From Chiloscyllium plagiosum (Eukaryota), in NCBI RefSeq assembly GCF_004010195.1, contig NC_057749.1, positions 14,725,429 through 14,789,428 on the forward strand: DNA of 64,000 nucleotides, read 5' to 3'. How positions within the stretch are numbered: position 1 is the stretch's first letter; every line of letters starts with the position of its first letter. Shown in pieces: positions 1,965 to 23,800 of the stretch. The position numbers and the translations under genes are program-made. Under the pieces are notes generated by a model. That model ran no database searches and was not told where the DNA came from. It saw only the letters and a list, made by a program, of their open reading frames with translations.

Positions 1965-2700
1965 GCAGCACGATGGCTCAGTGGTTAGCATGGCTGCCTG
2001 GCAGCATCAGGGATCCAGCTTTAATTCCAGCCTCGGGCGACTGTCCGTGTGGGGTTTGCACATTTTCCTCGTGGATTTTCTCCGGGTGCTCTGCTTTCCT
2101 TCCACAGTCCAAAAATAAGGTCAGAGGTCACACGACACCAGGTTATAGTCCAACAGGTTTATTTGATTTGGAGGTGCCAGTGTTGGACTGGTGTGCATAA
2201 AGTTAAAAATCACACAACACCAAGTTATAGTCCAACAGTTTTATTTGGAAGCACTAGCTTTTGGAGCGCTGCTCCAACATCAGGTGGTTATACTCCAAAA
2301 CCACCTGATAAAGGAGCAGCGCTCCGAAAGCTAGTGCTTCCAAATAAATCTGTTGGACTATAACCTGGTGTTGTGTGATTTTTAACTAGGCTTATTTGAA
2401 ATCACAAGCTTTTGGACTGTAGCCCTTCATTAGGTGGAGTAAGAGGGAAGCACACAGAACACAGAATTTATGGGCAGAGGGATCAAAAGATCTTACAAAG
2501 ATATGCAAGTTAGGGTGGATTGGCCATGCTCAATTGCCCATTATTTCCAGGGATATGTAGGCTAAATGAATCATCAATGGGAAATGCAGGGATGGGGTAG
2601 GGGGTTGGGTCTGGGTGGGTTGCTCTTCAGAGGGTCAGTATGGACTCAATGGGCCAAATAGCCTGCTTCCACACTATGGAGATTGTATGATTCTATGATC
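1965..2700 (+). mobile_element. HE1-type V-SINE interrupted by nested Penelope-like terminal fragments (~2114-2495)
   Basis: tRNA-like head gcacgatggctcagtggttagca, V-domain up to ccacagtccaaa (2113), resuming at caaagatatgcaagttagggtggattggccatgct (~2496), then a tail ending ttctatga. Confidence 0.8.
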
Positions 2701-3856
2701 AAACTCCAGTTAATTTGACCACCATTCAGTGAAATCCTTGAGATATTTGTGGTCACTAATTAGTGAAGTAAATGCATTAATGTTGTCTAACTGATGGCCT
2801 CATTGTGCTCACTTGTCAGCAATAATGTTATGAAAAGGACTGCTGTATTTTGTTGTAGTGTCATGATTACTGAGTTCTCTCCATGCAAATTCAATTAGGT
2901 TGATCAACTATGTGACAATTTACAGCAAACACATCTAATTTTCTGCATGAGAGGTAGCATCAAGATTCCTGCCTTATGTTCGTATTTACAAAGAGGACAG
3001 AATTTCTCTACCGCCTTTCAAGACCCCAGGGTGTTCTGCAGAACTTTACATCCGATGAAGCCTTTTTGGACATGTTGTCACTATTGTAAGGCAGATATTT
3101 TCGCACAGCAAGATCCCAAAACGGGCAACGTATTAAAATGACTGGATTGTCTGGTTTTGTTGTGATAATGGTTGAGAGCTAAATATTGACCAGATCAGAA
3201 ATCTGCTGCTCTACTTCATATAGTGCACTGAAATTTATATAAAACATGAACAGAGAAATTTATGTTAAGACTATTCCACAGATCCAGCTTTGTTGAATCG
3301 AGATCAGGCTGTTAGACAGCAATGCAATGCTTTCAGTTATTGAAATTGTCTTGTAACTGAATAACATCTCTTGCATCATGATATGTGGGTGTTTGACACA
3401 AAGTACTTCAGAGAATTTACAAAAAAAAGGAAAAGAAATTCTTATATGTGTTCAGTCCCTCATCTCTTTGAGGTCTCCCAAAATACTTCACATACAACAG
3501 ACAATTTACGATCCAGTGAACGTTGGTATGGGACCCTGACTAAGGCACTTCGGAGCACACCAGTGAATCTCTTAGCTTTCTGTCAGACAGTATCATGAGA
3601 TCTTTAATCTGAACTGACAAACAAGGCTTTGGTTTAACTCCTTATGCAAAGAATGGGAGCTTCCACACAACCACACTCTCTCAGAATGTACGGCAGTGTC
3701 AGTCTGGGTTACTTACTGAAACCCTGGAGTGCAGTCAGACATGCCTTTGTGTCTCACTTCATGAGGTGTGTACATAATCTGGACTGACACCATGGCTGTA
3801 ATGAGGGACTGGTGCATTGTTAAGTTGAGACCCCCATTTGCCTGCTTAAGGGAGTA

Positions 3857-4020
3857 CAAAACAACCGAATGAGACGGGCGGGGAAGATTTTGTTCGGATA
3901 ACTGATTGTTCGAATAACTGATTGTTCGAATAACAGATAACATTTTTATGGGACCTTGAAATCTAGTTTGGATAATCCGAAATTCAGATAATTGACGTTC
4001 AGACAACTGAGGTTGTTCTG
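3857..4020. mobile_element. Tigger/pogo-like MITE with TA target duplication
   Basis: Ends TA|caaaacaacc ... ggttgttctg|TA are inverted with one mismatch; internal ttcggataa/ttcgaataa subrepeats; sits inside a Deu-SINE-like sequence. Confidence 0.65.
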
Positions 4021-4084
4021 TATATGAGATCCTAATATACTATTTTGAAGAGGAGAGAGGAGTTCCCTCTGTGTCTTGAGCCAA

Positions 4085-4890
4085 CAGTGGACAGTGGAGA
4101 AGGTTATTTCACACTACAACAGGACCTTGATCAGATGGGCCAATGGATGACAGATGGAGTTTAATTTAGATAAACGTGAAATGTTGCACTTTGGTAAGGC
4201 AAACCAGGCAGATTTATATAGTTAGTGCTAGGGCCCTATGGAGTGTTAACGAACAAAAAGAGCTGTAGTTTCACACTTGCTTGAAAGTAATAGTAGACAG
4301 GGTGATGAACAAGGCATTTGGCACACTTGCCTTAATTAATCAGTGCATTGAGTAAAGGAGTTTGGTGAGGCCACTTTTAGAAAACTGCATTCAATTCTGG
4401 TCTCCCTGCTATAGGAAAGATGTTGTTAAAGGGTTTAGAAAAGATTTATGAGGATATTGCTGGGATTGGAGAGTTGGAGCTATAGGATGAGGCTGAATAA
4501 GCTGGGACTATTTTCCCTGGAGCATTGAAGGCTAAGGGGTGACCTTATAGAGGTTTATAAAATCATGAGGGGCATGGTGTGGGTGAATAGGCAAGGTCTT
4601 TTTCCCAGTGTAGGGGAGTCCAAAACTAGAGGGTTAAGATTTAAGATGAGAGGGGAAAGATTTAAATAGGACCTGAGGGGCAGCTTTCTCATGCAGAGGG
4701 TGATGTGTGTATGGAATGAGCTGCCAGAGGAAGCGGTGGAGGCTGGTACAATTACAACATTTAAAAGGTATCTGGATTGGTAGATGAATAGGAAGGTTTA
4801 GAGGGATATGGGCCAAATGCTGGCAAATGGGACGAGGACAGTTTAGGAAACCTGGTCTCATAGATGAGTTAAACTCTACGACTCCATGAC
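4085..4890 (+). mobile_element. CR1/HER1-type LINE 3' fragment
   Basis: Degenerate ORF2 C-terminus (aggggtgaccttatagaggtttataaaatcatgagg = RGDLIEVYKIMR), 3' UTR and ctccatgactcta tail. Confidence 0.85.
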
Positions 4891-5699
4891 TCTATCGGCA
4901 AAACAGATGATGTGATCATTATCACTTTGTTTTTTACAGGAGCTTCCTGTGCACAAATTGGCTGCTGCCTTTCTGGCATAACCAGAAATGGTACGTGAAA
5001 AGTATTTGATCAGGTATAAAGATGGCAAGTGGTCATGAAATGCACTCCGTAAATTCAAGTCTCTTTTTTCATAAGAGGTCCCAGGACAGGACATTCTCTT
5101 CCATCAAATGCAAATTAGCTGGTTGTTCAACTCATTGCTGTTTGTGGGATCTTGCTATGCATGGAATATTTGCAAAAATAACAAGTGTTCACACTTCAGA
5201 AATAATTAATTGGTTGGAAAACACATTCACACATCCTGAGATGTTCAAAAGTAGAAAATTATTTCTTTTGGGGTCTTAGGTGAGGGATAAACACTGATCT
5301 CTACTCTTTTTTTGAAAATAGTGGTCATCTGTTTTTCTCTTCATCCAGCTGAGAAGGCAGAGTGACTTTGGTTTCAGGTTTCAAGTTTCAACAGAGAGAC
5401 AGTGCTTCAGGCAGTGTGGCACTCCCACAGTACTGGCTGCAGTCATAGCTTGTCTTTCCACAAACAAAGGGTTGACCTGGGGGAAAAATCAATGAGACAA
5501 AAATGGCAAGAAGATATCAGGAAGTATCAGCCACAGACTAGACCATGGATGGAGGACAGAATGAGGTGGTGATAATAAATATATGTACAGAGGAACTTGC
5601 TGGAATTGAAAAATTGGCTCTCTGTTATAAGGAACATTAAAGTAGATATTGATTAAATGGATTAAAACTATGTAAACTACATTGTTCCAAGGCATGTTG

Positions 5700-5990
5700 G
5701 TCTGCAAAAACAAAAACAGAAACTGCTGGAAAAGTTCCACAGCCTCTGTGGAGAAAAATCAGAGTTAACGTTTCAGGTCAAATGACCCTTCCTCAGAACT
5801 GATGGTAGCAAGGAAAGTGTTGATGTTTTGTGCAGAAAATAGGGCGGGTGGAGGCTGTAAGGAGTAAACAATAGGTTGGATTGGAGCCCAAAGAGAGAGA
5901 AGGACAGTTGTACAGACAAAGCAGTGGATAACGATCAGGCTAGGAGAGTGAACAGCTATTAATGAGGACTGTTAGCGGCTAACAATGGTC
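5700..5990 (-). mobile_element. Penelope-like element terminal fragment (family B) carrying a hammerhead motif
   Basis: aaaaacagaaactgctggaaaag...agagttaacgtttcaggtcaaatgacccttcctcagaact; same terminal family as the fold-backs at ~38.5, 41.9, 44.9 and 56 kb. Confidence 0.6.
5763..5800 (-). ncRNA. Minimal type I hammerhead ribozyme motif
   Basis: Minus strand: AGTT-CTGAGGA-A-GGGTC-ATTT-GACCT-GAAA-CG-TT-AACT. Core CUGANGA/GAAA, stem II, stem I AGTT/AACT, palindromic stem III ACGT. Confidence 0.65.
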
Positions 5991-7527
5991 TACAGATTGT
6001 GATCGAGACAGAGATCTCAAATCCAGCACTAAAGTCATGGTCTCTAGGTCTGCAGTGTCACTTACTTGGTTGTATGTGTCAGAGGCAATGGATAGTAGCT
6101 AGCGGAAACCTCAGGTCCTTGGAGACTATCATCATCCACAAGATCCTGCAAATCCAATGGCAGGATGTTAGTGTCCTCTGTTAGGCCACCATCCCCAGCA
6201 CCAGTTACGGTCAATCATCTGTATGCATGGCTCCTTAAAACAAGCCTCTCCACTCCCAGCTCAGTCAAGGCAAGTCAATGGTTCCCAATGGTATATGGGA
6301 GGTTCTTGCCCAAAGCAGAGAAGAAGCCAACCATTTCCTCAACCAGCTGGATCAGGAGGAGGCCAAGTGCAATCGGCAGATGGAGCAGTCATCCACGTGT
6401 GTGTGGGGATCCACCATTGGACTGTTTGATCATCTTGGGGCCACAATACCAGAATGGAAGACAGTGCTCCTACATCCCGAGGGAGCGCCTGAGGAGGAGG
6501 ATGGGCAGTAACTGGGAGACTCAGCATGCTTTATAAGTCTCCAGGGTGGGGCTCAAAGATATGACCTTCTGACACAGCGACTGGTTTTCTCCTACTCAAT
6601 GCCCCCTATACATTTGTAACCCCAGCAAATGTACACAAAGTGGTCAGGGGAAGTGGCAGGCCAGGCAGAGAGAGGGAAGGTGGAAATGGAAAAGCATTTG
6701 AAAATAAAATCAATTCAGTGAGGAATCCCACACAGCTGCAGCTGCAGTTTTTACTGTGAAGGCTGGTGACTTTATTTATTCTATTGTGAATTTATTGCAC
6801 AGTCGTACTTGGTCGTTGTTTACATACATGCATAATGTATAATATACAGAACTGAATGTAATCCTTCGTAAGCCTACTCCTCAGGTCAGGTTTTATGGTA
6901 ACTTCTTCCTTTTCTGTTGCTGAATTCAATTTGATTTACTCTTGTATCCAGTGAATCCTCTTTATTTATGCATGTATGGTTAGCTGGGATTTTAATAAGG
7001 CTTCTTTTCCATTCCTTTAGGGTTTTATGGCAGTTTCCATTGTGCTGTAACTGTTTCCTTTCATCACCTGCTACATTCAGTGTCTGTGCAAAAATTAAAT
7101 CACTTCATCCTCCTTTCTTACCCTCTCCATAATCTTAAAGCCATCTCATCTGTGCTATGCAGTTGTCAGCTCACACCTTGTCCCATTCAACCTTCACTCT
7201 GTGTTTGTTGACTCAAATTGGTTCCTGTTAGGCAATGCTTTGATTTAAAGATTCTGATCCCACCTTACCTTTTCAAGTCTATTAATAGACTCATCCCTTT
7301 TTGCCTCTGTAATTTCTTCCAGCCCACAGCCCTCTGAGATATCTGCACTTCTCCAGTCTTCCTCCTTGTGTTTGGTCAGTGTTAATTGCCCCACTGTTAG
7401 TGGCTGTGGCTTTAGCTCTCAGGGCTCTATGATCTGAAAGTCTCTCACTAAACCTCTTTAACTTGCTTTCCTCTTTTAAAATGCTTCTTAAAACCTAGCT
7501 CTCGGCTCAAACTTTTGTCATTGACCA

Positions 7528-7830
7528 GCGGTTAGCACTGCTGCCTCACAGCGCAACCTGGATTCGATTCTACCCTCGGGTGACTGTCTGTGTGGAGTTT
7601 GTATATTCTCCCCGTGTCTGCGTGAGTTTCCTCCAGGTGCTCTGGTTTCCACCAACAATCCAAAGATGTGTAGGTTAGGTGGATTGAACATACTAAATTG
7701 CCCATAATGTCTAGGTGGATTAGTCAGGGGAAATGCAGGGTTACAGGGATAGGGTGGGATGTTGTTCAGAGGATTGGTGTTGACTCAACCAAATGGCCTG
7801 CTTCCACCCCTGTACAGATTCTATGATTCT
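7528..7830 (+). mobile_element. HE1-type V-SINE
   Basis: ggttagcactgctgcctcacagcgc head, gtgtggagtttg...ctccccgtgtctgcgtg V-domain, gattctatgattct tail. Confidence 0.85.
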
Positions 7831-8654
7831 AATGTCTGCTTAGAGTCAAACTTCGCTTGATAGTTCTGGTGAAGTGCTTTGGGACTTTTTGCTACATCAA
7901 AGTTGCTATATAAGTGCAAGTTGTTATTCTGAGATAGTCCAGAATAGTATTATCCCACTGTATCCACTACCCTTTACAATTTTTCATGGAAGAGCAGGGG
8001 AATTCTCACCAATGACCTGGACCAATATCTAACCCTCAACCCACATCACTTAGCAAGTGTTTACATATGTTTGCTACTTGTGGGATCTTGCTGTGCCTCA
8101 GTTAACTGTTACAGCAGTGACTACATTTAAACAATGGGATGGTGCTGTGTGGTTATGCCATATGGAGGAGGACCCCTCATGTCCAAAGATCCATTGAGTG
8201 CAGTGAGTTTGATTTCCCTGCCTTTGGAAATACTCTCCCCTCAGAACAGAAAGGGAATGGTTGTTGAGTGACAATTTCTCTCTTTAATCAGACAGGATGG
8301 AAAAGCTCATTCTGGGATTATGCTGTGTACAAGATCACTGTAGCCAAATGATATGCATTTGTATAGCACCTTCAGGCTGTCCCCAGAAATCTTTACAGTC
8401 AATGAAGGACTTTTGAAGAGTAGCCTGTGTTGTATATAATTTAAGAAACACAACAGCCAATTTGCATACACCAATCCCCGGCAAATAGCAATGGGATAAT
8501 GACCCAGCTCATTTTGTTTTTCAGTGAGGGTGATTGAAGGATAAATGTTGGACAGTACACCAGATAATATGCAAATAAACAATATGGATGCTGGAAATCT
8601 GATATAAACACAGAGCACACTGAATAAATGCAGTTCTTCAAACTGAAGAAAAGT

Positions 8655-9120
8655 CATAGAGTCGCATAGCATGGAAACAGACCTTTTGGACCAACTCAGC
8701 TGCGTGCACAGATATCCTAAATCTAGTCCCATTTTCCCGCATTTGGCCCATATCCTTCTCAATCCGTCCTATTCATAAACCCATCCAGCTGCCTTTTAAA
8801 TGCTGTAATTGTACCAGCCTCCACCACTTCCTCTGGCAGCTCATTCCACACACACATCAGCCTCTGTGTGAAAAGGTTATCCCTTAGGTCCTGTAAAACC
8901 TTTCCTCTTTCATCTTAAACCTATGCCCTCTAGTTTTGGATTACCCTACCCAGGAGAAAAGACCTTGTCTTTTACCCTATCCATGATTTTATAAACCTCT
9001 ATAAGGTCACCCTTCAGCCTCCAACACTCCAGGGAAAATAGCCCCAGCCTGTTCAGACTCTTCCTATAGCTGAAACCTTCCAACCCCAACATCAACATTG
9101 TAAATATTTTTTGCATCCTC
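8655..9120 (-). mobile_element. CR1/HER1-type LINE 3' fragment inserted into a Penelope-like terminal fragment
   Basis: Reverse complement of the LINE 3' end (catagagtcgcatagcatggaaacagacc...ataaacctctataaggtcaccc). Confidence 0.85.
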
Positions 9121-10394
9121 CCATGTTGGACTCAAAATGTTAACCATTTCTCTTTCTACCTGACCTGCTGAGTTTCTCCAACAATTCCTGTTTTGTCTTT
9201 AGTATTTCACCCCACCTGCTCTTCTTTAACCTAATGTCGGGAAGGTTTTCACACTCACTTGTGCGGCTTTAGCCAAAAGAACTCAGAGTGCACAGTTCTC
9301 CCATGGTATGACAGCAAGTGGTTGGGTTTTCTGATCAACACTGGGGACTCCAACTTGAACCCACAATGTTTGGACCCAATGAACCCCAACTGGCACCAAT
9401 CAGTCACCCCTTACAAAACACAGGACATGCTTCTGTAACAACATGTTGAGATGCAATATAAATACAAATCTTTCTCAAATTGGAGTCAAACAGTGAAACA
9501 GAAAAAAAAACAGATAACTGAGCCCATTACAGAATCCCGAGAAGCCAGTGATATTTTTCAAAGTGTCCTTCATGAGGAGATTGAATGATTCTCTATCTGC
9601 AGCAGGCTGAGATATTCCCCTGCTGTCCTGTTATAAATCCCATTTCCTTCCACACAATACGGAATAAATTTAATTTAATTTGTTCTTTCCCTTGGCCGTT
9701 GACAGGATTCATGTTTGTTCTTGTGTTGCTCTGCTCTCCTCTGTGCCTGTAAGCTGGGGTCCGATTCCATTAGTCCCCTCATAACATTTGAGGCAAAAAG
9801 AAAACATCTCCAACGCACTGAAAAGGCACTGGATCTGCATCTGGAGTTCTGTAATGTGCAAGGCTACAGACCCAGGTGCTGGCAAGTGGAAGAGAATGAG
9901 TAACTATTCTTCAGCCAGCACAGACATGATGAGCTGAGTGGCCTCTTTCTGTGCTGTATTGTTTCTGCATTTCTAACATTGCACAAGTGTAAAGCCTCTT
10001 CACTCCTGGCCCCTCTAATAGCGAGGTTTGCTACTAAAGCTGACATTCTCTGTCACTTTGCATTAAAATAGCTTCTCTGATTTTGCCTGGGAGAGGATGG
10101 GTTAGATAGAAAGAACAGACTTTGTTTCCCCTCTTTTGTCACCTCAGGATGACCTGAAGCATTTTGCAGCTAATGGATTACAACTCCAGAGAACAGTCAC
10201 AGCGCTAATGCAGGGAAATGCAGGCATTCTGTCCACACTCCGAGTCCAATGCACAACCTTTAATCCCAATCACTTCAGCTGATCATCATTGCTGTTTGGG
10301 GGAGCTTGCTGATCACACACATTCGCTTCATCACCTCAATGAGGAATCCTCAGTAATCGCCTTCAGGTCATTAACGGAGATGTATAAATACAAT

Positions 10395-10630: not shown

Positions 10631-10679
10631 ATTTTGTTAAAAAACTCATATTTGAGGAATTGTCAGGACCATGTTTTGC

Positions 10680-12318: not shown

Positions 12319-14233
12319 CGCAACTTTCTCTTGCTCTCCTCCCAGGTGTAAGCTTGTGTTTCCTCTCTCTGGAAAGGCGAGAGAGGCTGCTCCTGGGAGC
12401 TCAGAACTGGACCTGAAAGGATTTTTATTTGGGGGCGGGGGGGTTGGGAACGAAAGCACCACTGTTTTCGTTTGGGAGTGAGAGTTTATTAGTTTGCACT
12501 TGCCTCTGAGAATCTAGCAGGGCGTTTTGAAGAGATGTCTCTAACAGAGAAGCTGCTTTGCACTGTTTCCTTGCAGAGATGGGGAAATCAGATCAGGCAT
12601 GAGCTTATTGAATGGGCAAGTATACTCAAGGGAGCGAGTGGTCCACTCCTGGTATTTTGAGAGTTGGTAACTCATTACCCAGTTTTGTTTTCCTTGTGAG
12701 GGATAAAGGTTTTCAAGGAGAGGAGGCAGAACACTTGGCTTGGCTCTGACAAAGGGCTGGTACAATTGAGATGGGCCAAATGGGCACGTGTCAAGTAAAC
12801 TGTGTAATTACACCTCAATCGGGGCTAAGGGAGGAGAGAGCCTATTTAACTACAGAAAGCATCACAAATGACCTTGATCTTGCTGCATGACCAAACTGAA
12901 TGTGGAGGTGGCAGTGTTGGACTGGGGTGGACAAAGTCATAAGTCACACGATACTCAGTTATAGCTGAAGGGGCAGCACTCCGAAAGCTTGTGATTTCAA
13001 ATAAACCTGTTGGACTATAACCTGGTGTTTGTGTGACTTCTGACTTTGTCCATACTAAAGATCAGGGGTTGTTCACTGACTGTGCCCCACATAGGAAGCA
13101 GGGTGAATGGTATCTTTGGGGTTTGATGGAGGGGTCACTGGATAGGACATCAAGAATGCTGCCTCTTCTCTCCCCCACCCCCCCGCCAACTCCATTCCTT
13201 AACTTCTCGAGGTTAACCACAGTTGATAAGTTGCTGACTCTGACCGTGATGAATTCACAGTGGGATTGTTCTTCTCCCATACCCCCAGAACAAATTGAAA
13301 GCTCCCCTTGGTTTGTGTTGTGAAATATCTTGCTTGTGATTTTCAGCAGAGCGTGCTGGTTTGTGGTGAGACTCTTGTACCATGTCAGCTTGGAAAAACG
13401 CCCAGTCTTGTGTGAACAGATCAGTCCTTCCAAATTTGGCCTGACTCTAGGGAGAGAATGTTAAACTGTGTTTAAAAAAAACCCAGGGGTAAAGAGCTAC
13501 TGATATTTTCTTCCCCAATCCTGCAAATTGCAGGCTACAGCCACTGTCTCTCACTTACAAAAAGTGCTCTTGGTTTCAGTTTGTGTTCACTGCAGTTCTC
13601 TCTCTGCAAAGTATAGGTTTGGAAACCTGCAGATGACAATGATGTTGGTTGAGGTTATCTCTGTTCTTGTTTAAAGGTTGAGTACAGGGTCAGTTTTGTA
13701 AAGGAATCAGAAATGGCCAGCACATCGTGTGGGTGGTTGCTCCTCTGTTCTTCGAAAATTAACATGAAGTGATTTCATTGTGATCATTAACTCTCTAGTG
13801 TGGAATTAATCCACCATCAACTGTGAGAGACGTTGATGGAAAGCAATTACAAAAAAAAACTTTCAAGTGAGTATCTGGAGCAGATTCATTAAGCAGGTAG
13901 TGGGCTGAAGTCCCAGTGGATAGAAGTCTGTCCCTGTATAACACTGGGGTATAGTACTGGTGGGGACAGGTCTGTCACTGTATAACACTGGGGTACAGTA
14001 CTGGTGGGGACAGGTCTGTCAGTGTATAACACTGGGGTATAGTACTAGTGGTGGGGGACAGGTCTGTCAGTGTATAACACTGGGGTATAGTACTAGTGGT
14101 GGTGGACAGGTCTGTTACTGTATAACACGGGTACAGTACTGGTGGGGACAGGTATGTCAATATAACAATGTGGTACAGTACTGGTGGAGACAGGTCTGTT
14201 GTTGTATAATGCTGGGGTACAGTACTAGTGGGG

Positions 14234-14916
14234 CTGAAAATGTGTTGCTGGAAAAACGCAGCAGGTCAGGCAGCATCCAAGGAACAGGAGAATCGACGTT
14301 TCGGGCATAAGCCCTTCTTCAGGAATGAGGAAAGTGTGTCCAGCAGGCTAAGATAAAAGGTAGGGAGGAGGGACTTGGGGGAGGGGCTTTGGAAATGNNN
14401 NNNNNNNNNNNNNNNNNNNNNNNNNNNNNNNNNNNNNNNNNNNNNNNNNNNNNNNNNNNNNNNNNNNNNNNNNNNNNNNNNNNNNNNNNNNNNNNNNNNN
14501 NNNNNNNNNNNNNNNNNNNNNNNNNNNNNNNNNNNNNNNNNNNNNNNNNNNNNNNNNNNNNNNNNNNNNNNNNNNNNNNNNNNNNNNNNNNNNNNNNNNN
14601 NNNNNNNNNNNNNNNNNNNNNNNNNNNNNNNNNNNNNNNNNNNNNNNNNNNNNNNNNNNNNNNNNNNNNNNNNNNNNGAAGGATCCCTTGGGGCCTTGGA
14701 GGGAAGTAAGGGGGGAGGTGTGGGCGCAAGTTTTGCATTTCTTGTGGTTGCAGGGGAAGGTGCCGGGAGTGGATGTTGGGTTGGTGGGGGGTGTGGACCT
14801 GACGAGGGAGTCACGGAGGGAGTGGTCTTTTCGGAACGCTGCCTGACCTGCTGCGCTTTTCCAGCAACACATTTTCAGCTCTGATCTCCAGCATCTGCAG
14901 TCCTCACTTTCTCCTC
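14234..14916 (-). mobile_element. Truncated Penelope-like retroelement (family A) with inverted terminal segment; spans an assembly gap
   Basis: Minus-strand ORF remnant FRKDHSLRDSLVRS...PGTFPCNHKKCKTCAHTSPLTSLQGPKGSF, the Cys-rich linker preceding the GIY-YIG endonuclease in PLEs. Terminal segment 14234-14275 is inverted relative to ~14838-14880. Flanked by tacagtactagtgggg at 14218-14233 and 14917-14932. Confidence 0.8.
14290..14327 (-). ncRNA. Minimal type I hammerhead ribozyme motif in the PLE terminus
   Basis: Minus strand: cattc-CTGAAGA-A-GGGC-TTAT-GCCC-GAAA-CG-TC-gattc. Core intact, stem I imperfect. Confidence 0.65.
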
Positions 14917-15136
14917 TACAGTACTAGTGGGGACAGGTCCGTCACTGTATAACTCTGGGGTATAGTACTGGTAGGGACAGGTCTGTCACTGTCTAACACT
15001 GAGGTATAGTACTAGTGGTGGGGACAGGTATGTCACCGTATAACAATGTGGTACAGTACTGGTGGGGATAGGTCTGTTGTTGTATAATGCTGGGGTACAG
15101 TACTGGTGGGGACAGGCCTGTCACTGCATAATGCCT

Positions 15137-15174
15137 GATTCCTGAAGAAGGGCCTGTGCCCGAAACGTCGAATC
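15137..15174 (+). ncRNA. Minimal type I hammerhead ribozyme motif (best-formed copy)
   Basis: GATTC-CTGAAGA-A-GGGC-CTGT-GCCC-GAAA-CG-TC-GAATC: 5-bp stem I, 4-bp stem II, palindromic ACGT stem III, GUC triplet with predicted cleavage after 15169. Confidence 0.75.
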
Positions 15175-17317
15175 TCCTGTTCCCTGGATGCTGCCTGACC
15201 TGCTGTGCTGTTCCAGCAATAAAGTTTCAACTGGGGACAGGTCTGTCACTGTATAACACTGGGGTTTGGTACTGGTGGGGGACAGGTATGTCCTTGCATA
15301 ATGCTGGGGTATAGCACTGGTGGGGACAAGTCTGTTGCTGTTCAATGCTGAGGTACAGTACTAGTGGGGACAGGTCTGTTGCTGTTTAATGCTGGGGTAC
15401 AGTACTGGTGGGGACAGGTCTGTTGCTGTTTAACACTGGGATACAGCACTGGTGTGGACAGGTCTGTCACTGTACAATGGTTACATTTCAATGGAGGACA
15501 GGTCTGTCACTGTGTAACATTGAGTACAGTACTGGTGGGGGCAGGTCTGTCACTGTATAAAGGTTACTGTACAAGGAAGGACAGGTCTGTCACTGTATAA
15601 CACTGGCGTATGGTGCTAACTGGATCTCTCTTTGGTGATTAAAGGGATGAATCTACAAGTATAATCAGAGACTCTCTCATGAGAAATATAACAACAAAAA
15701 AGTCAGGTTGTGTGTGTTGGCCTGCAATGTTGTGTTAGTTTATTAGCTGTGGGTCTGTGTCCTAATTTTGTAGTGAGTTTTAACTGTTTAGGTTCACAGT
15801 TAACTAAAATAATCATCCAGCATCAATAATTGAGATGTTGTACCAACAATGTATTGACCCTTTGTAAGCTGATAACCCAAATAAATTCTGCAGTTATTTC
15901 CGAGACACTGAGACAGACACTGAATCAGATCGTGATGCTCCCTCCACTGAAACCTTCAATGTTTGAAACATTTACTAAAAATTCTGCTGAAAGCTGGTTT
16001 TGAATTTTACCACTTTCTGCAGCATTTACTGAACTCTTAGCATAAGAAGCTGAAACAAGAGGAGGCCATTCAGCCCCTCGTAGCTCATCTGCCATTCAAT
16101 AAGATCATGGCTGATCCAGCTCAACTCCACCATTCTGCCCTTCACACATTCCTCCATTTCCTTAGTGCTGAGTTAGATTTTAAATTAAATCATTTTTGGT
16201 GCTTTTAAGGATTTTTGTGTGTTTCTTTTTTAAGCCTCTGGGTTCAGAAGGCCATGAGCTTACAACACCACTGCAGAGATCATGCTCTCCTTTCTTAGTG
16301 TAGTAGTGAGGGAGATGCTGCACTGTTGGAGATGTCATCTTTTACAATGAGAGGATAGAGGGAGGTCCAGTCAACCTCAGGCAATGTTGTCGCAGTAAAG
16401 AGTCATTTATATGCGTTCATCAAAGGAAATCCCAGTTTAAAGGTCAAGGTTCATAATGCAGGGTGGTACCAAAATTGACAAAATGCTGATGTCCCCACAA
16501 TTATTAGCATCAGACTTGGGTTTTCGGACTGAAGGGGAAGTTTGGTTGTGATTGGGGGTTGAGGGGGTGGGGCAGAGTTTGCATTTTAAGATCCTGGTCT
16601 AAGAAATTTCAGCACTTTGAGATCGAAAAGATTACGGGATTGGGTATGTAGAATTGAGGAGGAACAAGGAAGGTATATTCAGAAGGGTGTTGACTTAGGT
16701 TCAGTGATAGAGAGAAAGGATTATTGCGACAGAACTATGCAACATCCCACATAGCTATACCGCTGTTGGAATGAACACTGTTGACTCATACCTGAGCTTA
16801 ATTGACTGAAATTTCAAAACTGTTTATGCTCTGGCAGCTTAAAATATCATTCTGATTTCCTGACTGAGTTTCAGGAGCGGCTGTTTGGACGAGGAGAGAG
16901 TGGAAGAAAGTACAGGAGGGCTTTTTTAAAAAAAGGCGTAATATTCTATTTTGAACACCTTGCTGCTGTTTGTTGACTAACTTTGATTGCATTGGTTCAT
17001 TCTGCTGTTTGTGAGCCACAATCATGTTGGTAACACTGACACAATGTCAGTGCTGAGGATTTGTATTGTCATGTGGGCCTTGATCCCTCATTGGTGGGAA
17101 CTGGTTCTGGCTTGGGCTCCCCATCCTCAGGCACCAGTGCTGCTGTATCTGCCAGGTTTGAGGTGAGGTATCAGCATGGCTGTTCTACCCGAGTGGGGTG
17201 GAATACAGCAAGTCAACTCTTGTCCCCCCCCCCCCCAGAGATTCATGGGCGTACATTGTAGAGCATTGCAGTCTTTGTCCCAACATCTTTCTTCCTATCA
17301 GACAATAAGCAAAATGG

Positions 17318-17680
17318 GGAGGCAATGGCCTAGTGGTATTATCACTGGACTGTTAATCCAAAGACTAAAGTGACATTCTGGGGACCAGAGTTCGAATCCC
17401 ACCATGGCAGGCAGTGAAAATTGAATTCAATTGGTAAAATCTGGAATAAAATTCCAGCCTGATGATAACTATGTAGTAAATGTCAATTGTCGTCAAAATG
17501 TCATCTGGTTCACTCATGTCATTTAGGGAAGGAAATCTGCCATCCTTACCTGGTCTGGCCTACATGTGACCCAGACCCACAGCAATGGGGTTGACTCTTA
17601 ACTGTCCTCTGGGCAATTAGGGATGGACAATAAATGCTGGCCCAGCCAGTGAAGCCCATACCCTGTGAATGAATTTAAAT
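17318..17680 (+). mobile_element. tRNA-derived SINE, near full length
   Basis: Box A-like tggcctagtgg and box B-like gttcgaatccc, family body, LINE-like tail ending gaatgaattt. Confidence 0.8.
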
Positions 17681-19069
17681 GATCTCACTCTCCCAGATTT
17701 TGTTACTTTTCAGTCTTCTACTCTAGAACAAGATGCCGCTGATGGTTAGCCACCTTGTTGACCAGTTGCAGTCCACATGGTGATGGTGTTTCCAGGTCAG
17801 GGTCAGTCTGGAATTCTGGGAAGGGAAGAGAACAGAACAGCGATTGTAATTCCACGTGAGTTACATGTGTGTTTTAATTTCACTTTTTAATCGTACTTTA
17901 GCCAGATTTAGTTTCCAATAATTGACCTTAAAGCAACAGGAGGTTGACAGTGGCTGAATTCTGTCCCTGTGCGATGATGGAGATCATGGTGACATCACCC
18001 CAAAGTATCCTGCAGCAGGTGCATCACTATGTGATAGACAGAGTAAATATTAATGCCAGTGTCAAGGGGGATGACCAGCCAAACTGCATTTGTGTATCCT
18101 CCAGTCTCTCTACTCTGTCACTGATGGCTGTGCCTTCAACTGCCTGGGTCCCATCTTCAGAAACTCACCCCTAAAATTTCTCTTTTCCTCTTTGTGACAT
18201 TCCTTAAAGCCATCTCTTTGGCTACACTTTTAATCACCTATCCTAATATCCCTTCCTTGGCCTCAGTGACCATTGTCTTTGATTGCATTGCTGTGAAGCA
18301 CCTGGGGCAGTTTTAAAACATTTATGGTGCTATATAAATGCACATTTGTTGTCACTCAGTCCTGGTTACTGTAAACACTTTTAACAGTAAGTGTCAGGTA
18401 ACTGACTGAATCAAAGCATTCATGAGAAGCACTTTTTCTACAAACCTTTCATGGTACATTACAGTGAGACCCTGCTATGCTTTTAATCCAGAGCTTTTAA
18501 CTTGGAATAAAGAAATAATGCAGATGTTAAGATTAAAATGCGTTTACCTTGTCATGTCACCACTCACTGCTGAGAATCCTTTCTCTAAGGAGGATTTGTG
18601 AGCACGATGCTTGCCTGGTGAGATACCAAGGGGCCAATGCTGTTCTGTGCAACCACCCTATCCTCCCCAAAAGGGCATCTCACTACAGTGTCCACAGTTG
18701 AATTAGAGTCCATAGGTCAGAACGTGAGAGAAGCTGCAAGGGAGAGTTACAAGGATTTGACCCAGGACTGGAACAAGGCAGCTTTGACGAAAGGTTAGAT
18801 AGGGCAGGTATTGTTCATGGAACTGAGGAGATTTGAGGGGAAACTTGACTTGCAAGGGGTGTGGAAATTGCAGATGGGAAGATGGGTGCACCACCTCGGT
18901 GCAGTGTCAGTGACTAAGGGACATGATTTAAACTGGTAAAGGATTAGAGTGGAGATGACAAGGCTGTTTTCACCTGAAGGATCCAGGCACACTCCCTGAA
19001 AGAGCAGGAGAGGCAGAAACACTCAACTCAGTTCAAAGGTGTCTGGATAAAGGTACAAGTTAAGAGAGT

Positions 19070-19515
19070 TATGGAATACTCCCCACTTGCCTGGATGGGT
19101 GCAAGAAATTTTCCAGGGCAAAGCAGCTCCTGTTTGATTGGCACCACATCCACAAACATTTACTGCTTCCACCACTGACACTCAGTAGCAGCAGTGTGTA
19201 CTGTCTACAAGATGCACTGCAGAAATTCACCAAAGATACATAGATAGCACCTTCACCATGACCATGTCATTCTCAAAGGTCAGCACTTATTTGGAGCACG
19301 AGCACCTGAAATTTCCCCTCCAAGCCATACACCGTCCTGATTTTGAAATATATCGCCAGTCCTTCAGTGTCACATCCTGGAATTTCCTCTCAAACAGAAG
19401 TGTGGGTCTATCTACAGCAAGCACACTGCAGCTCACCACCACCACCTCAAGGGCAACTAGGGATGGGCGATAAATGCTTATCCAACTGGCAATGCCCACC
19501 TCCTATGAGTGAATT
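19070..19515 (+). mobile_element. CR1/L2-group LINE 3' fragment (second family)
   Basis: atggaatactccccacttgcctggatg (MEYSPLAWM) and ...tacaagatgcactgcagaaattcaccaaag; same family as 40215-41165. Confidence 0.75.
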
Positions 19516-20494
19516 TGAAGAAAGCACCTCAGATATCATAACCTGCAGGGTTATGGGTTAACTGCTGGGAAGTGGGAATGGGCTGAGTGGATAGCTCATT
19601 AGAGAATGTTTTTCAAAGTATTTTCAAGGACCGTAGTCCATTATGATCTGTGATAATCCAACACCCAATCACTGTTCAGTCAGCTTTTGTGCAATATCGA
19701 TTTTACACAGGGAATGGGGACAAGATTAAACTTGTTTATGACAATGATTCCTCTCAATGTGGAGTAGCACTTTTATCCTCGCTGGTGGGGTGTTCAAAGA
19801 ATGTTACCGTATCCTCCATGGTTACGGCTCCAAGCAGTCACTCATTAAGGATATAAACACCAGGAGTGTGAATGATCCTGACTGTGAAACAAATGAAACA
19901 GGTCCTGGGTGAGTGAAAAGCAGAGGATCTGAAATAATAGTAAAGCAATTTCCTTTCTGTTCAAGCAGTTGATGTTGAGTTAAATTTAATTTCTGACAAT
20001 TTATTTTACGTATACTTGTAAAATGTAGGAAACGGCTAGATAGTCTCTGGCATAGCCATAGTGTTCTGTCTGAAGTTGCTGTTTGATCCTGGCTGATTAT
20101 ACTGCGCTGTTTTAAATTAGTTTTGTTCTTACTACACAGAAAACCCCAATGAATAAAAGCATTACTTTCCATGTGAAACTCCAACCAACTGACATCTTCA
20201 GCAGAAATCTTAAGTTGTTCCACATTTTGCCTCCTTCCCCATGTACTTGATGCTCTGTGGTTGATTTAAAGGCCAGTTTTTTTTTCTCATCTACGGATCT
20301 GCTTCTCACTGTGGACAGAGAGGGGGAGGGCTGGGCTTCCAGCTGCTTTTGGTACCTCAATCTGTCAGCCAATCTTCACCTGTGAATTGGGAGGCATGTT
20401 TGCTACTGGGCAGTTTGACCAGGAGTGACATCACATTTGAACTGGGATCTGTCTTGAGCCAACTTTGCATTTACTCATTCTGGTGAGCAAGAGT

Positions 20495-20775
20495 CCACTC
20501 AGAATTAGAGGGGATCAGTTTAGACCGGAAATGAGGAGACATTTCTTCAGCCAGAGAGTGGTGGGCCTGTGGAATTCATTGCCACAGAGCGCAGTGGAGG
20601 TCGGGACGTTGAATGTCTTCAGGGCAGAGATTGATAAATTTTTGATCTCGCAAGGAATTAAGGGATACGGGGAGAGTGTGGGTAAATGACGTTGAAATGC
20701 CCATCAGCCATGATTGAATGGCTGAGTGGACTCTAAAGGCCGAATGACCTTACTTCCACTGTCTTATGGTCTTAT
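20495..20775 (+). mobile_element. CR1-type LINE 3' end
   Basis: LRIRGDQFRPEMRRHFFSQRVVGLWNSLPQ...FRAEIDKFL, with a cttatggtcttatg tail. Confidence 0.85.
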
Positions 20776-20779
20776 GGGC

Positions 20780-22460
20780 ACAGGACAGATTAAACTTCTC
20801 CCACATCTTCCCATTAAACACTCCCAGGATAGGGACAACATGGAGTTAGACAGTGAAACTCCTCTACCTTTGGGGAGGGAAATTGTCATCCTTACCTGAT
20901 CTGGCATCCGTGGACTCCAGACCCACAGAATTGTGGGTTGACTCCTTAGTGCCCTCTGTGCAATTAGGGATGGGCAATAAATGCTGGCCTAGTCAGCAAT
21001 GCCCACATCCTGTGTCCCCCTCCAACACTTCCAGGATTGGGACAGCAAGGGGGTTAGAAGCAAAGTAAAGCTCTCTCGACACTGTCCCCATCAAACACTC
21101 CGAGGGGTGGTCTTATGGAGGTTCCCAAAATCATGAGGGGCATGGATAAGGTAAAAGGACAAAGTCTATTCCCCAGGATAGGGGGAGTCCAGAACTGGGG
21201 GGCATAGGTTTAAGGTGAGAGGGGAAAGATTTAATAGGGACCGAAAGGGCAACCTTTTCACACCGAGGGTGGTGTGTGTATGGAATGAGCTGTCAGAGGA
21301 AGTGGTGGAAGTTGGTACAATTGCAACATTTAAAAGGCATCTGGATGGGTACAAGAATAGGAAGGGTTTAGAGGGATATGGGCCAAATACTGGCAAATGG
21401 GACTGGATTAAGTTAAGATAGCTGGTTGGCATGGATAGGTTGGACCGAAGGGTCTGTTTCTGTACATTTCTATGACAGGGACAGCACGGGGTTAGATGCA
21501 GAGTAAAGCTCCCTCAACACTGTCCCCATCAAACACCCCAATAGCACTGTGGGAAAATTATCCCACCTTAGGAATGCTAAAGTCAATTGTGACTCTTGAC
21601 TGTCTATCACACAAAGAGCAAAAAAACTGGACACAACTGAAGGATCCTCTAGCAGGTATACTTGGCACCAGTCTGGGCAGTGCCATTGAATGTGTCTTTG
21701 CCCCCTTGTGTTCTACCAGAATTGGTTGTAGCTGAGTGATTAAACTCCCTGCAAAGCAGAGATAGGCAATTGGCCCTTTGCAAACTATAGAAACTTTATT
21801 CAAACAGAACATTGTTTTGGCAAACCAACCTTGGCATAAAAATAAGTTCTGATTTGATAGTGCACATTATAACTGAAGCACAGAAAAACAGAATGCTCAT
21901 ATCAAGATTTAAGATCTGGCAGGGAGTTCACTCTCCTATGTACGATTGCATCTGGTGCTTACAGAGCAGTCTAACTCTCACTGTTGTATGGCCCAGTTTG
22001 CTCTTATGCCACAGAGACGAGGAACAATCAGGATTTTGATTCCGCTGTCCTGCTCCTGTGTGTTCTGAGTTGGCTGTTTCCTGTAGGGACTGCACTTGCC
22101 TTGGAGTTATTACGTTTAGTTTGAATGTTCCTGAGGTGACAGGCAGCAGATCTGTTAGTCAGGGTGCCCACTCATCACCTGCTATCCTGCTATTGGTGCT
22201 GCAAAGTACAAAGCAGGAAGAGGCTATGATGAAGTCTGTAGTTCAGTAGCTAACATCAGTACCCCCTCAGCACAACTCCCATCAGATCTCTCCAGGCAGA
22301 TGCAACACCGGCTCTCTCTATATTGTCCCCCATCAAACACTCCCAGGACGGGGACAGCACGGGGTTAGATACAGAGTAAAGTTCCCTCTCACTCTCCCCC
22401 ATCAAACGCTCCCAGGACATGACAGCATTGAGTTAGATAGAGAGTAAATCTCTCTCAAGT
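20780..22460 (+). repeat. Dispersed ~65-bp satellite-like units (gggacagcacggggttagatacagagtaaagctccctc...ccccatcaaacactcccagga)
   Basis: Units at ~20780-20870, 21010-21100, 21475-21540 and 22310-22460, separated by SINE/LINE inserts and unique DNA. Confidence 0.75.
21110..21475 (+). mobile_element. CR1/HER1-type LINE 3' end
   Basis: RGERFNRDRKGNLFTPRVVCVWNELSEEVVEVGTIATFKRHLDGY followed by the 3' UTR. Confidence 0.88.
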
Positions 22461-23800
22461 CTCAGTAATGTGTTTCAGCCCTAATATAGAAAGAATGTGT
22501 GGCAGTATGTATGCTTATGGTGACCACTCTGTGAAACACTATTTGAAGTCCCTGGAATGAGGGTAAAATGCAATCACTTAAACCTTTGATCCCAGCATCA
22601 AAGTGTGCAGGAAATTGGGACCATTGGCACTTTGTAATGGATCCTGCTCTGCTCCCATCCCCCGCCCCCTCGAGCCGTAATGTGAAGGGAGAGTCCATTT
22701 CTGATGAAGGTGTTGGGAATTGCTCTTCACATTTCCTGAGCTAACACGTTGACCATCCGTTGGAAATGTAAAGAAAGTGTTTGGCATTGGCTCCTCAGGA
22801 TCAAGTGGGTTATTGAGCAGGACAATGTGGAGTTGCAGCTGGGGTGGATTGTGGGAGGTGGTCACTCTTGCTACAGTGGCACTGGGTCGGTTGCTGAGTT
22901 CTATGTATTAGATGGGGAATGACTTGTATGTCTTCACCAGGGAGATGTCAAGCCAGCTTGATTAACACTAGAGTATGTGAGTGTGAAATCTATTTCCTTG
23001 CTGGGATCCTGGTGACTAATACAATTACAAGTGGCTTTATTGGTTTGTCACAGCTTCCTGTCTCCAGTCCCATGGGTAGGGAACTAACTGTTCACCACAT
23101 CCAGCTTGTGACACTGTTGGTTCCAATCCTGCTGTGAGCATCTCTGCTGGAGGAGTCAGCCTGGTGTGCAGTGGGAGTAATGGATGACCCCCGGTGAATG
23201 TAGTGGACAGATGAGTATATCTCACTGAATCAGGAATGGAGCAAAGAGCCTTCGCACATTGAGCTTGTGTAGTCACTGCCGACTGCACTTGCCTGAGTGT
23301 TGGGTGTGAGCTACCTGTGGTGTGGAAAGCAGGCAGGGCCTTTGTTGAACAAAGAGTTTTGAAACTGAATTCCTGAAAATCCTCAGGTTCGCTGTCACCC
23401 CAGATGACTGGAGCCAGCAGTCTGGGTGGAGGGGGTGGGGTACTTTGCCTGTCTGCCCCCTCCAATCTTTGGAGCAGAGCAGGATCCATTACAAAGTGCC
23501 AATGGTCCCAATTTACTACATTCTTTGATGCTGGGATCAAATGTTTAAGTGATTACACTTTACCCTCATTCCAGGGATTTCAAACAGTGTTTCATAGAGT
23601 GGTCACCATGAACACTCCGATTGCTGACCACACTGTTAGTATATTAGTTAAAAATCACACAACACCAGGTTATAGTCCAACAGGTTTATTTGGAAGCACT
23701 AGGTTTCGGAGCGCTGCTCTTTCATCAGGTGGTTGAATATTAGGGCTGAGATACATAGGGTGAGAGTTGAGGGAGCTTTACTTTGTATCTAACCCTGGGG
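22430..23800. repeat. Long inverted repeat (arms ~22430-22655 and 23471-~23800) around an ~815-bp spacer
   Basis: ggagcagagcaggatccattacaaagtgccaatggtcccaattt... at 23471 is the reverse complement of the sequence ending at 22655; the ORF track shows SRAGSITKCQWSQF on opposite strands. Confidence 0.92.
23648..23736 (-). mobile_element. Penelope-like terminal fragment (family C) with hammerhead core, flanked by an ATATTAG duplication
   Basis: Minus strand: CCAC-CTGATGA-A-AGAGC-AGC-GCTCC-GAAA-CC-TA-GTG. ATATTAG at 23641-23647 and 23737-23743. Confidence 0.75.

What the first reader, a model, noticed from the sequence alone, without database searches (positions are those of the whole stretch)
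2299..23736. Three Penelope-like families share one hammerhead fold with compensatory changes and two different palindromes
Seen: family A (14290-14327 minus, 15137-15174 plus) has stem I GATTC/GAATC in the best copy, stem II GGGC/GCCC and palindrome ACGT. Family B (5763-5800 minus) has AGTT/AACT, GGTC/GACC and ACGT. Family C (~2302-2336 plus, 23698-23731 minus, ~12966-12993) has CAC/GTG, GGAGC/GCTCC and palindrome AGCT. Stems differ in sequence but keep pairing around CTGANGA-A...GAAA, which argues for selection on RNA structure in the source elements. Individual copies are damaged: 2305-2311 reads CTGATAA and the 23.7-kb copy has ACCT. Inference: ACGT versus AGCT palindromes could act as dimer-compatibility codes, so A and B might cross-activate while C is orthogonal. 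PLE hammerheads are a known class; I cannot tell whether these shark families or a cross-activation code have been described.
Basis: partly seen in the sequence, partly recalled or inferred. Interest (0 to 1): 0.72.

Follow-up and report, generated by a model that had tools for sequence, protein, structure and literature searches.

The report
Shark Penelope-element minimal hammerhead ribozymes
The motifs are real copies of the small, dimer-type hammerhead ribozyme that Penelope-like jumping genes carry at their tail ends, here in three shark repeat families, which makes them new examples of a kind already described rather than a new kind.

Summary
At the stated places the window carries minimal type-I hammerheads: CUGANGA, one extra base, helix II, GAAA, a self-complementary A-N-N'-U in place of helix III, H17, and helix I. 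Four copies have an intact core. With helix II of at least 4 bp, 3 are seen against 0.03 expected.

They belong to short interspersed repeats of about 100-300 bp. No Penelope-like element (PLE) gene lies in the window. Elsewhere in the same 3.56-Gb genome, longer copies of all three families continue upstream into reverse-transcriptase plus GIY-YIG-type reading frames.

Intact forms are abundant genome-wide: 12,020 exact copies for A, 2,154 for C. The stems differ between families but keep pairing.

All of this matches Cervera and De la Pena 2014, including the extra base, G10.1-C11.1 and the palindrome. Their supplementary alignment already shows CG, GC and UA palindromes coexisting within single genomes. 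It lists no shark.

The "dimer-compatibility code" follows from base-pairing rules but is untested. I did not find it in print.

This scan has noted PLE-type minimal hammerheads before in other genomes.

The parts
15133..15230 (+). Family A, young subfamily (A1): 98-nt unit made of hammerhead plus tail. Hammerhead at 15137-15174, core at 15142-15169, predicted cut between 15169 and 15170. Inserted in a roughly 44-bp tandem repeat.
   Evidence: (65.1 bits, E 6.5e-17). Its 33-mer occurs 12,020 times exactly in the genome.
14235..14330 (-). Family A, older subfamily (A2). Hammerhead at 14290-14327; helix I has only 2 contiguous pairs. The element continues upstream (to the right) into a run of N at 14398-14677.
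   Evidence: 66 bits; 88.5% identity to A1.
14838..14877 (+). A-type tail without a hammerhead, facing the A2 copy in inverted orientation.
5700..5996 (-). Family B copy. Hammerhead at 5763-5800, predicted cut between 5767 and 5766. About 200 nt of family sequence lies upstream of the motif.
   Evidence: 63.8 bits.
2297..2387 (+). Family C unit. The core reads CTGATAA (G8 replaced by A). Palindrome AGCT; A17 at 2333.
   Evidence: This exact variant occurs 66 times in the genome, against 2,154 for the CTGATGA form.
2201..2289 (-). Family C copy, inverted and head to head with the 2297-2387 copy. Core decayed (CTGATGT, AAAA).
   Evidence: 93% identity. Seen by Rfam only as a mir-875-like hairpin.
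12968..13045 (+). Family C copy that begins inside the motif; reads CTGAAGG.
   Evidence: 87% identity, query positions 15-91.
23646..23734 (-). Family C copy. Core intact, palindrome broken (ACCT), one helix II mismatch.
   Evidence: 95.5% identity.

Best explanation
These are the 3'-terminal modules of Penelope-like retroelements (PLEs), or of short non-autonomous elements that PLEs mobilise. Each consists of a minimal type-I hammerhead followed by a tail of about 55-60 nt. They are scattered through a shark genome by target-primed reverse transcription with heavy 5' truncation, often with an inverted truncated partner.

On RNA the motif can form helices I and II around the conserved core. 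It cannot form helix III alone. Two motifs pair through the self-complementary A15.1-N15.2-N16.2-U16.1 to make a 4-bp intermolecular helix III (a double hammerhead), which cuts after H17. This probably happens with help from the element's protein.

Shown here: the motif, its pairing and covariation, its abundance, and the link to PLE reading frames.

Inferred from the literature on this class: dimer formation, cleavage, and what cleavage is for.
For: **Motif.** All features listed for the published class are present.

**More than chance.** 3 copies with helix II of at least 4 bp, against 0.03 expected.

**Abundance.** Intact forms are the common ones genome-wide. Exact copies: 12,020 for A1 and 2,154 for C; 1,387 matches to a degenerate B pattern; 0 for the reversed controls.

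**Pairing and covariation.**
- On 17 A/E/B copies, 89.2% of cells pair against 15-46% with slid partners. Three pairs change on both sides. 0 of 500 shuffles reach the score.
- Across A1, B, C and D, each family's own strands pair 3 of 3 (helix I) and 4 of 4 (helix II). Foreign strands average 1.0 of 3 and 2.0 of 4.

**Link to PLEs.**
- The reading frame upstream of a C unit matches shark proteins with RVT_1 and a C-terminal VVY...YIGET...R..GH domain.
- That C-terminal part sits among GIY-YIG clusters in the Atlas, score 0.96.
- tblastn with three such proteins hits 21 of 93 loci. Hits on the same strand and just upstream of the unit include C units in L068, L084 and L090, with E down to 1.6e-145 (L084). 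B units are hit in L036 (5e-13) and L055 (5e-7).
- An A2-type copy is hit in L048 plus L094 (6.5e-24).

**Insertion signature.** 28 of 32 young A copies and 11 of 44 C copies have inverted same-family sequence within 60 nt of their 5' end. This is the arrangement described for PLEs by Craig et al. 2021 (passages).
Against: - No PLE reading frame lies in the window. Its only reverse transcriptase belongs to a LINE at 32.5-34.3 kb.
- Pfam's GIY-YIG model does not match these proteins in the local copy, so that domain rests on motifs read by eye and an Atlas lead.
- The link for family A rests on one composite, L048 plus L094.
- No cleavage was measured. In one RNA run, 294 reads lay on the A unit in both orientations, with no pile-up of ends at the predicted cut. 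The library was single-cell poly-A and says little either way.
- Published work reports low in vitro activity for this class. It also reports that cleavage was not needed for insertion in vitro.
Confidence: 0.85

Rival explanations
1. The palindrome acts as a dimer-compatibility code. Families with ACGU (A, B and others) can activate each other in trans, while AGCU (C) is kept orthogonal. That separation would be selected between co-resident PLE lineages.
For: - A mixed ACGU/AGCU helix is predicted to be unstable: +0.4 against -1.7 and -2.5 kcal/mol.
- The C lineage is also distant at protein level. C loci show 57-70% identity to protein P0002; B and A loci show about 25-35%.
- Young A units are mostly solitary or in inverted pairs, so a sense-strand partner would have to come in trans.
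Against: - The palindrome difference coincides with deep lineage divergence, so descent alone explains it.
- A 4-bp helix of about -2 kcal/mol is too weak for free trans pairing.
- Published models place the partners in cis on tandem transcripts, or invoke the element's protein, which is predicted to form a dimer.
- Cleavage was dispensable for insertion in vitro.
- Nothing here measures cross-activation.
Confidence: 0.1
2. The hammerhead shape is kept mainly as a passenger, or as an RNA handle for the element's protein. RNA cutting would play no needed part in copying.
For: - Frangieh et al. 2024: core mutants did not affect insertion in vitro, and the ribozyme cut only when protein was present (passages).
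- Craig et al. 2021: PLE clades without hammerheads proliferate well, and hammerheads may 'simply parasitize PLEs' (passages).
- The young A unit keeps exactly the whole motif plus tail and nothing upstream, in 12,020 exact copies.
Against: - The catalytic core, not only the helices, is intact in the abundant forms.
- The core-dead G8A form of C has 66 exact copies against 2,154, which is no more than scattered point mutation would give.
- A palindrome at 15.2-16.2 is kept in every family, which a mere protein handle would not require.
Confidence: 0.25
3. These are retrozyme-type elements that spread as tandem repeats through circular RNA, rather than PLE tail modules.
For: Li et al. 2026 (preprint; abstract and passages) derive animal non-LTR retrozymes from PLE pseudo-LTRs and report them in their one chondrichthyan genome. 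The A1 unit is short (98 nt) and has fixed ends.
Against: - Among the first 100 listed A1 sites, none show same-strand neighbours one unit apart. By my reading of the list, 13 pairs are inverted, minus then plus, 37-256 nt apart.
- 28 of 32 young copies have an inverted partner, not a tandem one.
- The published retrozymes carry canonical type-I hammerheads with loop-loop contacts, not this minimal form.
Confidence: 0.08
4. These are chance matches to a short consensus inside unrelated repeats.
For: The bare core pattern alone is not rare: 1.93 expected against 4 seen.
Against: With helix II, the palindrome and helix I, 0 of 100 simulations gave any match against 3 seen. There are thousands of exact copies with reversed-pattern controls at 0, and covariation.
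Confidence: 0.01

Closest known systems
Minimal hammerheads (min-HHR) in the pseudo-LTRs of metazoan Penelope-like elements (Cervera and De la Pena 2014, PMC4209133; main text and supplementary PDF parts 1-2 read)
   Same: - Type-I topology, CUGANGA and GAAA core.
- One unpaired base between A9 and G10.1; G10.1-C11.1.
- No helix III hairpin; palindromic 15.2-16.2.
- Several consensus families per genome with compensatory changes.
- Most copies solitary and on truncated elements; some pairs on opposite strands.
   Different: - No cartilaginous fish is among the 40 species of their figure S3 or in table S1.
- Helix II here is 4-6 bp.
- One family (A1) is far more uniform than the variable families they stress: 12,020 identical copies, comparable only to their D. 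virilis case.
Small PLE-associated hammerhead variants that cleave as dimers (Lunse, Weinberg and Breaker, RNA Biol 2017; not held; known to me only through the review PMC6765202)
   Same: Short palindromic helix III and a dimer as the active form, as summarised by the review.
   Different: I could not read the paper. Whether it tested mixed dimers or discussed partner specificity is unknown to me.
Hammerhead of the Poseidon element PAc of Anolis carolinensis (Frangieh et al. 2024, PMC11167929; passages read)
   Same: A PLE hammerhead with helices I and II and no helix III hairpin, in the pseudo-LTR.
   Different: In PAc the motif overlaps the start codon, and its activity was measured: protein-assisted, and not needed for insertion. 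Here the motif lies about 320-600 nt downstream of the reading frame, near the element's 3' end, and nothing was measured.
Animal non-LTR retrozymes (Cervera and De la Pena 2020, PMC7229834, passages; Li, Clavereau and Pollet 2026 preprint, abstract and passages)
   Same: Short non-autonomous repeats with type-I hammerheads that work as dimers in vertebrates, and are argued to derive from PLE pseudo-LTRs.
   Different: Those are tandem arrays with canonical hammerheads that have a short helix III and loop-loop contacts. These are dispersed or inverted units with the minimal form.

Membership tests
PLE-type minimal hammerhead (min-HHR) | Conserved core C3-U4-G5-A6-N7-G8-A9 and G12-A13-A14 | tested here: met
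4 window copies.
PLE-type minimal hammerhead (min-HHR) | Helices I and II paired in type-I order, with covariation | tested here: met
   89.2% of cells paired against 15-46% with slid partners, and 3 pairs with changes on both sides; own strands pair 3/3 and 4/4; foreign strands average 1.0/3 and 2.0/4. The sequences for one search were picked for helix II of at least 4 bp, so only helix I is an unbiased test there (77.6% paired).
PLE-type minimal hammerhead (min-HHR) | One unpaired base between A9 and G10.1, and a G10.1-C11.1 pair | tested here: met
   The extra base is A in families A, B, C and E, and U in D. G-C is present in A and C. In B, 33 of the first 100 listed copies keep C and 67 have T, at a CpG (hand tally).
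PLE-type minimal hammerhead (min-HHR) | No helix III hairpin; self-complementary A-N-N'-U followed by H17 | tested here: met
   ACGU in A, B and E; AGCU in C. H17 is C, U and A respectively. For D, the 5 copies seen read ACGT (2), ACCT, ACAT and ATGT.
PLE-type minimal hammerhead (min-HHR) | Lies in the pseudo-LTR or 3' end of an element encoding RT plus GIY-YIG endonuclease | tested here: met
   Met at other loci of the same genome for C (strong), B and A2. Not met inside the window, which has no PLE reading frame.
PLE-type minimal hammerhead (min-HHR) | Site-specific self-cleavage as a dimer | not testable with these tools
   Energy models do not capture the hammerhead fold. The RNA reads showed no pile-up of ends, but the library is unsuited to the question.
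Rfam hammerhead families (type I and III models; names recalled) | Score at or above the family's gathering threshold | tested here: not met
   0 matches at gathering score. None of the 8 matches at E up to 10 is a hammerhead. This is expected when helix III is missing.
Penelope-like elements (canonical, endonuclease-bearing) | Reverse transcriptase domain | tested here: met
   RVT_1 in P0002 (5.2e-9) and P0007 (5.9e-9); P0008 falls below the cut-off. Fragments of it lie upstream of the units.
Penelope-like elements (canonical, endonuclease-bearing) | C-terminal GIY-YIG endonuclease | tested here: inconclusive
   No Pfam PF01541 match. A genome search with PF01541 gave one weak hit. The motifs VVYLIRC...C...WYIGET...R...GH are visible. 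The Atlas places residues 690-882 of P0007 among clusters where 13-23% of members carry PF01541, score 0.96.
Penelope-like elements (canonical, endonuclease-bearing) | Heavy 5' truncation with an inverted truncated copy at the 5' end | tested here: met
   28 of 32 young A copies and 11 of 44 C copies. The junctions are listed. The feature is as described in Craig et al. 2021.

The most novel reading that the evidence does not exclude
The two central bases of the helix III palindrome work as a partner-choice code: ACGU in the A, B, D and E lineages, AGCU in the C lineage. Co-resident Penelope lineages would then form active double hammerheads only with their own kind. Under this reading, the very uniform 98-nt A1 unit (12,020 identical motifs, mostly without a sense-strand neighbour) depends on such trans pairing, or on pairing inside a dimer of its element's protein.
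Probability: 0.1. Interest if true: 0.55.

Novelty: new member of a known kind. Interest (0 to 1): 0.25.

Why it matters
What PLE hammerheads are for is still open. Published passages disagree on whether cutting serves the element at all.

This shark genome offers natural material for a clean test:
- two palindrome types side by side;
- a family whose youngest subfamily gained a full 5-bp helix I through two changes;
- thousands of identical natural copies, so no reconstruction is needed.

As a finding it extends a known class to cartilaginous fishes and changes no current view.

Tried and rejected
- **Rfam** at gathering score and at E up to 10 found no hammerhead.
- **The DNA search** with a wide gap was rejected as a pattern error. 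I used a script instead.
- **Genome search with Pfam GIY-YIG** gave one weak hit and did not find PLEs.
- **Pfam on reading frames:** among 86 window frames it gave only a LINE. Among 38 frames upstream of long B and C copies it gave nothing relevant.
- **PDB sequence search** with P0007 gave nothing useful.
- **Cross-family alignment:** MAFFT put families C and D out of register. The formal pair count therefore covers only A/E/B, and the cross-family count was scripted.
- **Covariance model R1**, built from A/E/B, found 3 strong hits in the window but none of the C copies.
- **RNAcofold** dimers did not use helix III. Nearest-neighbour energies cannot judge a hammerhead dimer.
- **Core-dead C subfamily:** I considered that a C subfamily with CTGATAA had amplified. 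My sample was biased by the query. Genome counts are 66 against 2,154, so I rejected the idea.
- **RNA runs:** no RNA holder is listed. One raw RNA run gave 294 reads in both orientations and no pile-up of ends; a second run gave none. This says nothing about expression or cleavage.
- **Papers:** Lunse et al. 2017 is not held. I did not see the supplements of the 2026 preprint; they may name the chondrichthyan species and its families.
- **Search of this scan's earlier notes** for Penelope, hammerhead and shark found none holding all three words.

Full report
**What is in the window**

Reading the stated coordinates confirms each motif.

- The plus copy of family A reads GATTC / CTGAAGA / A / GGGC-CTGT-GCCC / GAAA / CGTC / GAATC at 15137-15174.
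- The minus copy at 14290-14327 has the same core but only two contiguous helix I pairs.
- Family B at 5763-5800 (minus) reads AGTT / CTGAGGA / A / GGGTC-ATTT-GACCT / GAAACGTT / AACT.
- Family C reads CAC / CTGATAA / A / GGAGC-AGC-GCTCC / GAAAGCTA / GTG from 2302. It reads CTGATGA...GAAACCTA at 23700-23728 on the minus strand, and begins inside the motif at 12968.

A regex scan of both strands finds four intact cores. In 100 first-order Markov simulations of the window, the bare core pattern appeared 1.93 times on average, so four is unremarkable (15 of 100 simulations reached it). With helix II of at least 4 bp the mean was 0.03 against 3 observed. With a true palindrome and helix I of at least 2 bp as well, no simulation gave any match.

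Rfam reports no hammerhead at gathering score or at E up to 10. These motifs lack the helix III hairpin that the Rfam models expect.

BLAST of the three units against the window gives 18 rows.

- an inverted C copy at 2201-2289, head to head with 2297-2387;
- decayed A/B-type pieces at 14838-14877, 24097-24139, 24442-24521, 38553-38688, 45034-45070, 56024-56144 and 63709-63778.

**What the repeats are**

The window lies in a 3.56-Gb assembly that could be searched.

| Family | Unit | Genome search | Identity of matches |
|---|---|---|---|
| A | 98 nt, begins 4 nt before helix I | 74 matches, 40 scored of 355 candidates | many at 100% |
| B | extends about 200 nt upstream of the motif | 41 matches, 40 scored of 1,773 | 78-89% |
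| C | about 98 nt | 48 matches, 40 scored of 2,138 | 94-99% for full-length matches |

Exact-pattern counts over the whole genome:

| Pattern | Copies | Reversed control |
|---|---|---|
| A1 33-mer | 12,020 | 0 |
| C 32-mer with intact core | 2,154 | 0 |
| Degenerate B pattern | 1,387 | 0 |

So the common form of each family has the paired stems and an intact core.

**Link to Penelope-like elements**

None of the 86 window reading frames of 90 aa or more is PLE-like. The only reverse transcriptase belongs to a LINE with an AP endonuclease at 32.5-34.3 kb.

Some fetched loci carry longer copies.

- The frame upstream of a C unit (L068) finds shark proteins of 360-1,137 aa.
- It aligns at 46% over 130 residues to the C-terminus of an 882-aa protein.
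- That protein has RVT_1. Read by eye, it also has an IKPADKGG motif, a C-x5-C-x2-C linker, and VVYLIRC...C...WYIGET...R...GH.
- Pfam's GIY-YIG model does not match. The Atlas places the last 193 residues among clusters where 13-23% of members carry that family, score 0.96.

tblastn with three such proteins against the window and 93 loci hits 21 loci and nothing in the window.

- Upstream of C units, on the same strand, hits include L068, L084 and L090, with E down to 1.6e-145 (L084).
- Upstream of B units, hits are in L036 (5e-13) and L055 (5e-7).
- An older A-type copy (L048), extended by L094, gives E 6.5e-24.
- The motif lies about 320-600 nt after the reading frame and 55-60 nt before the element's end.

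Young A copies have inverted same-family sequence within 60 nt of their 5' end in 28 of 32 cases. The figure is 5 of 17 for older A copies and 11 of 44 for C (junctions). For B it is 0 of 39, but my B query starts at the motif rather than at the element's 5' end, so that number is not comparable.

Heavy 5' truncation with an inverted truncated partner is the insertion pattern described for PLEs (Craig et al. 2021, passages).

**Covariation**

The fetched loci also hold two further hammerhead families:

- D, with helix II GUUACC/GGUGAC;
- E, like A but with N7 = U and loop UUUU.

On 17 A/E/B copies with the structure I specified:

- 89.2% of cells pair, against 15-46% when partners are slid;
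- three pairs change on both sides (19 cells);
- 0 of 500 shuffles reach the covariation score.

Those rows were chosen for helix II of at least 4 bp, so only helix I (77.6% paired) is an unbiased test there.

MAFFT misaligned C and D, so I scripted the cross-family comparison.

- For A1, B, C and D, each family's own strands pair 3 of 3 in helix I and 4 of 4 in helix II.
- Strands from another family average 1.0 of 3 and 2.0 of 4.
- Position 10.4-11.4 is C-G, U-A, G-C and A-U in the four families.

Within family A, the older subfamily has CATTC against GATTC (two contiguous pairs). The young, 100%-identical subfamily has GATTC against GAATC: two changes that together give five pairs.

**Decay**

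In the first 100 listed B copies (hand tally):

- position 11.1 is C in 33 and T in 67;
- the palindrome centre is CG in 26, CA in 38, TG in 30 and TA in 6.

Both sites are CpG, so this is ordinary methyl-CpG decay. The window's B copy has T at 11.1 (a G.U pair). The AGCU palindrome of C has no CpG.

The G8-to-A change in the window's C+ copy is shared by only 66 exact copies against 2,154. That is no more than scattered point mutation would give. The apparent majority in my sample was a bias of the query.

**Comparison with what is known**

Cervera and De la Pena 2014 (whole main text read) define exactly this motif in PLE pseudo-LTRs. They list the following as its emergent features:

[quoted passage not shown] - G10.1-C11.1;
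- a palindromic 15.2-16.2.

Their supplementary figure S3 aligns 56 motifs from 40 species.

- CG is the commonest centre. GC, UA and AU also occur.
- Single genomes hold families with different centres: Schistosoma mansoni 1-4, and Nematostella vectensis 1-2.
- No cartilaginous fish is listed there or in table S1. The main text does not contain "shark", "chondrichth" or "heterodimer".

Other sources:

- A review summarises that these motifs probably cut as dimers, helped by tandem layout, and slowly in vitro.
- Frangieh et al. 2024 (passages) found that a lizard PLE hammerhead cut only with the element's protein, which is predicted to dimerise. Core mutants did not affect insertion in vitro.
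- Li et al. 2026 (abstract and passages) derive vertebrate retrozymes from PLE pseudo-LTRs and include one chondrichthyan.
- Three full-text searches found no paper on shark hammerheads of this kind, nor on mixed-dimer specificity.
- Lunse et al. 2017, the most likely place for such a test, is not held.

**The compatibility code**

Duplex energies are -1.7 kcal/mol for ACGU with itself and -2.5 for AGCU with itself. For the mixed pair the best structure is +0.4. The logic holds: A and B could share a helix III, and C could not join them.

But a 4-bp helix this weak needs tethering. The palindrome split also coincides with a deep split between PLE lineages at protein level. Cleavage itself may be dispensable.

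One point favours trans pairing. Among the first 100 listed A1 sites, none has a same-strand neighbour one unit away. By my reading of the list, 13 pairs are inverted.

RNA data could not decide. No RNA holder is listed. The one informative raw run showed reads in both orientations and no pile-up of ends.

**Verdict**

The identification as PLE hammerheads is supported, with the correction that the window holds only tail modules. The selection argument is supported for the source elements. The code idea is untested, and its premise (mixed palindromes in one genome) is already in print as data. These are new members of a known kind.

Noticed in passing
window 2259-2329 (-) and 63660-63788 (+): Rfam's weak 'mir-875' (23 bits) and 'mir-641' (32.3 bits) matches are long hairpins. 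The first is formed by the head-to-head pair of PLE tail modules at 2201-2387. The second overlaps a decayed A-type copy at 63709-63778 and may be the same kind of pair. Transcripts through such pairs would fold into long double-stranded RNA.
   Followed up: partly
window 14900-15300: The young A unit sits inside a roughly 44-bp tandem repeat (ggggacaggtctgtcactgtataacactggggtacagtactggt...). Contigs from other runs join the flanks without the unit, but these may simply be other repeat units. PLEs are reported to favour repeats as targets.
   Followed up: partly
window 32504-34283 (-): Broken LINE with AP-endonuclease (Exo_endo_phos_2, 6.3e-9) and RVT_1 fragments (about 1e-13). It is unrelated to the hammerhead repeats.
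   Followed up: no
window 24736-24815 (+): tRNA-like match below Rfam's threshold (22.9 bits against 29), with a 22-nt insert. Possibly a tRNA-derived SINE head.
   Followed up: no
loci L005:1957-2006, L035:2245-2294, L060:1936-1985; L052:2258-2301, L056:1302-1345, L041:1801-1844: Two more minimal-hammerhead families in the same genome: D (extra base U, helix II GUUACC/GGUGAC, 6-nt loop) and E (like A, with N7 = U and loop UUUU).
   Followed up: partly
window 14398-14677, 37447-37617, 62734-62950: Three runs of N (280, 171 and 217 bases). The first interrupts the body upstream of the older A copy.
   Followed up: no
window 56668-57087 (-): Weak, below-threshold match to the PI3K p85 inter-SH2 domain (E 5.4e-4, 20 bits against a cut-off of 31.5). 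Possibly an exon or chance.
   Followed up: no
runs X1-X20: Runs labelled with four different coded organisms hold about a fifth of the sampled words of window 15000-15400. That is roughly the share of the 98-nt A unit, so the unit may be shared among related species.
   Followed up: no
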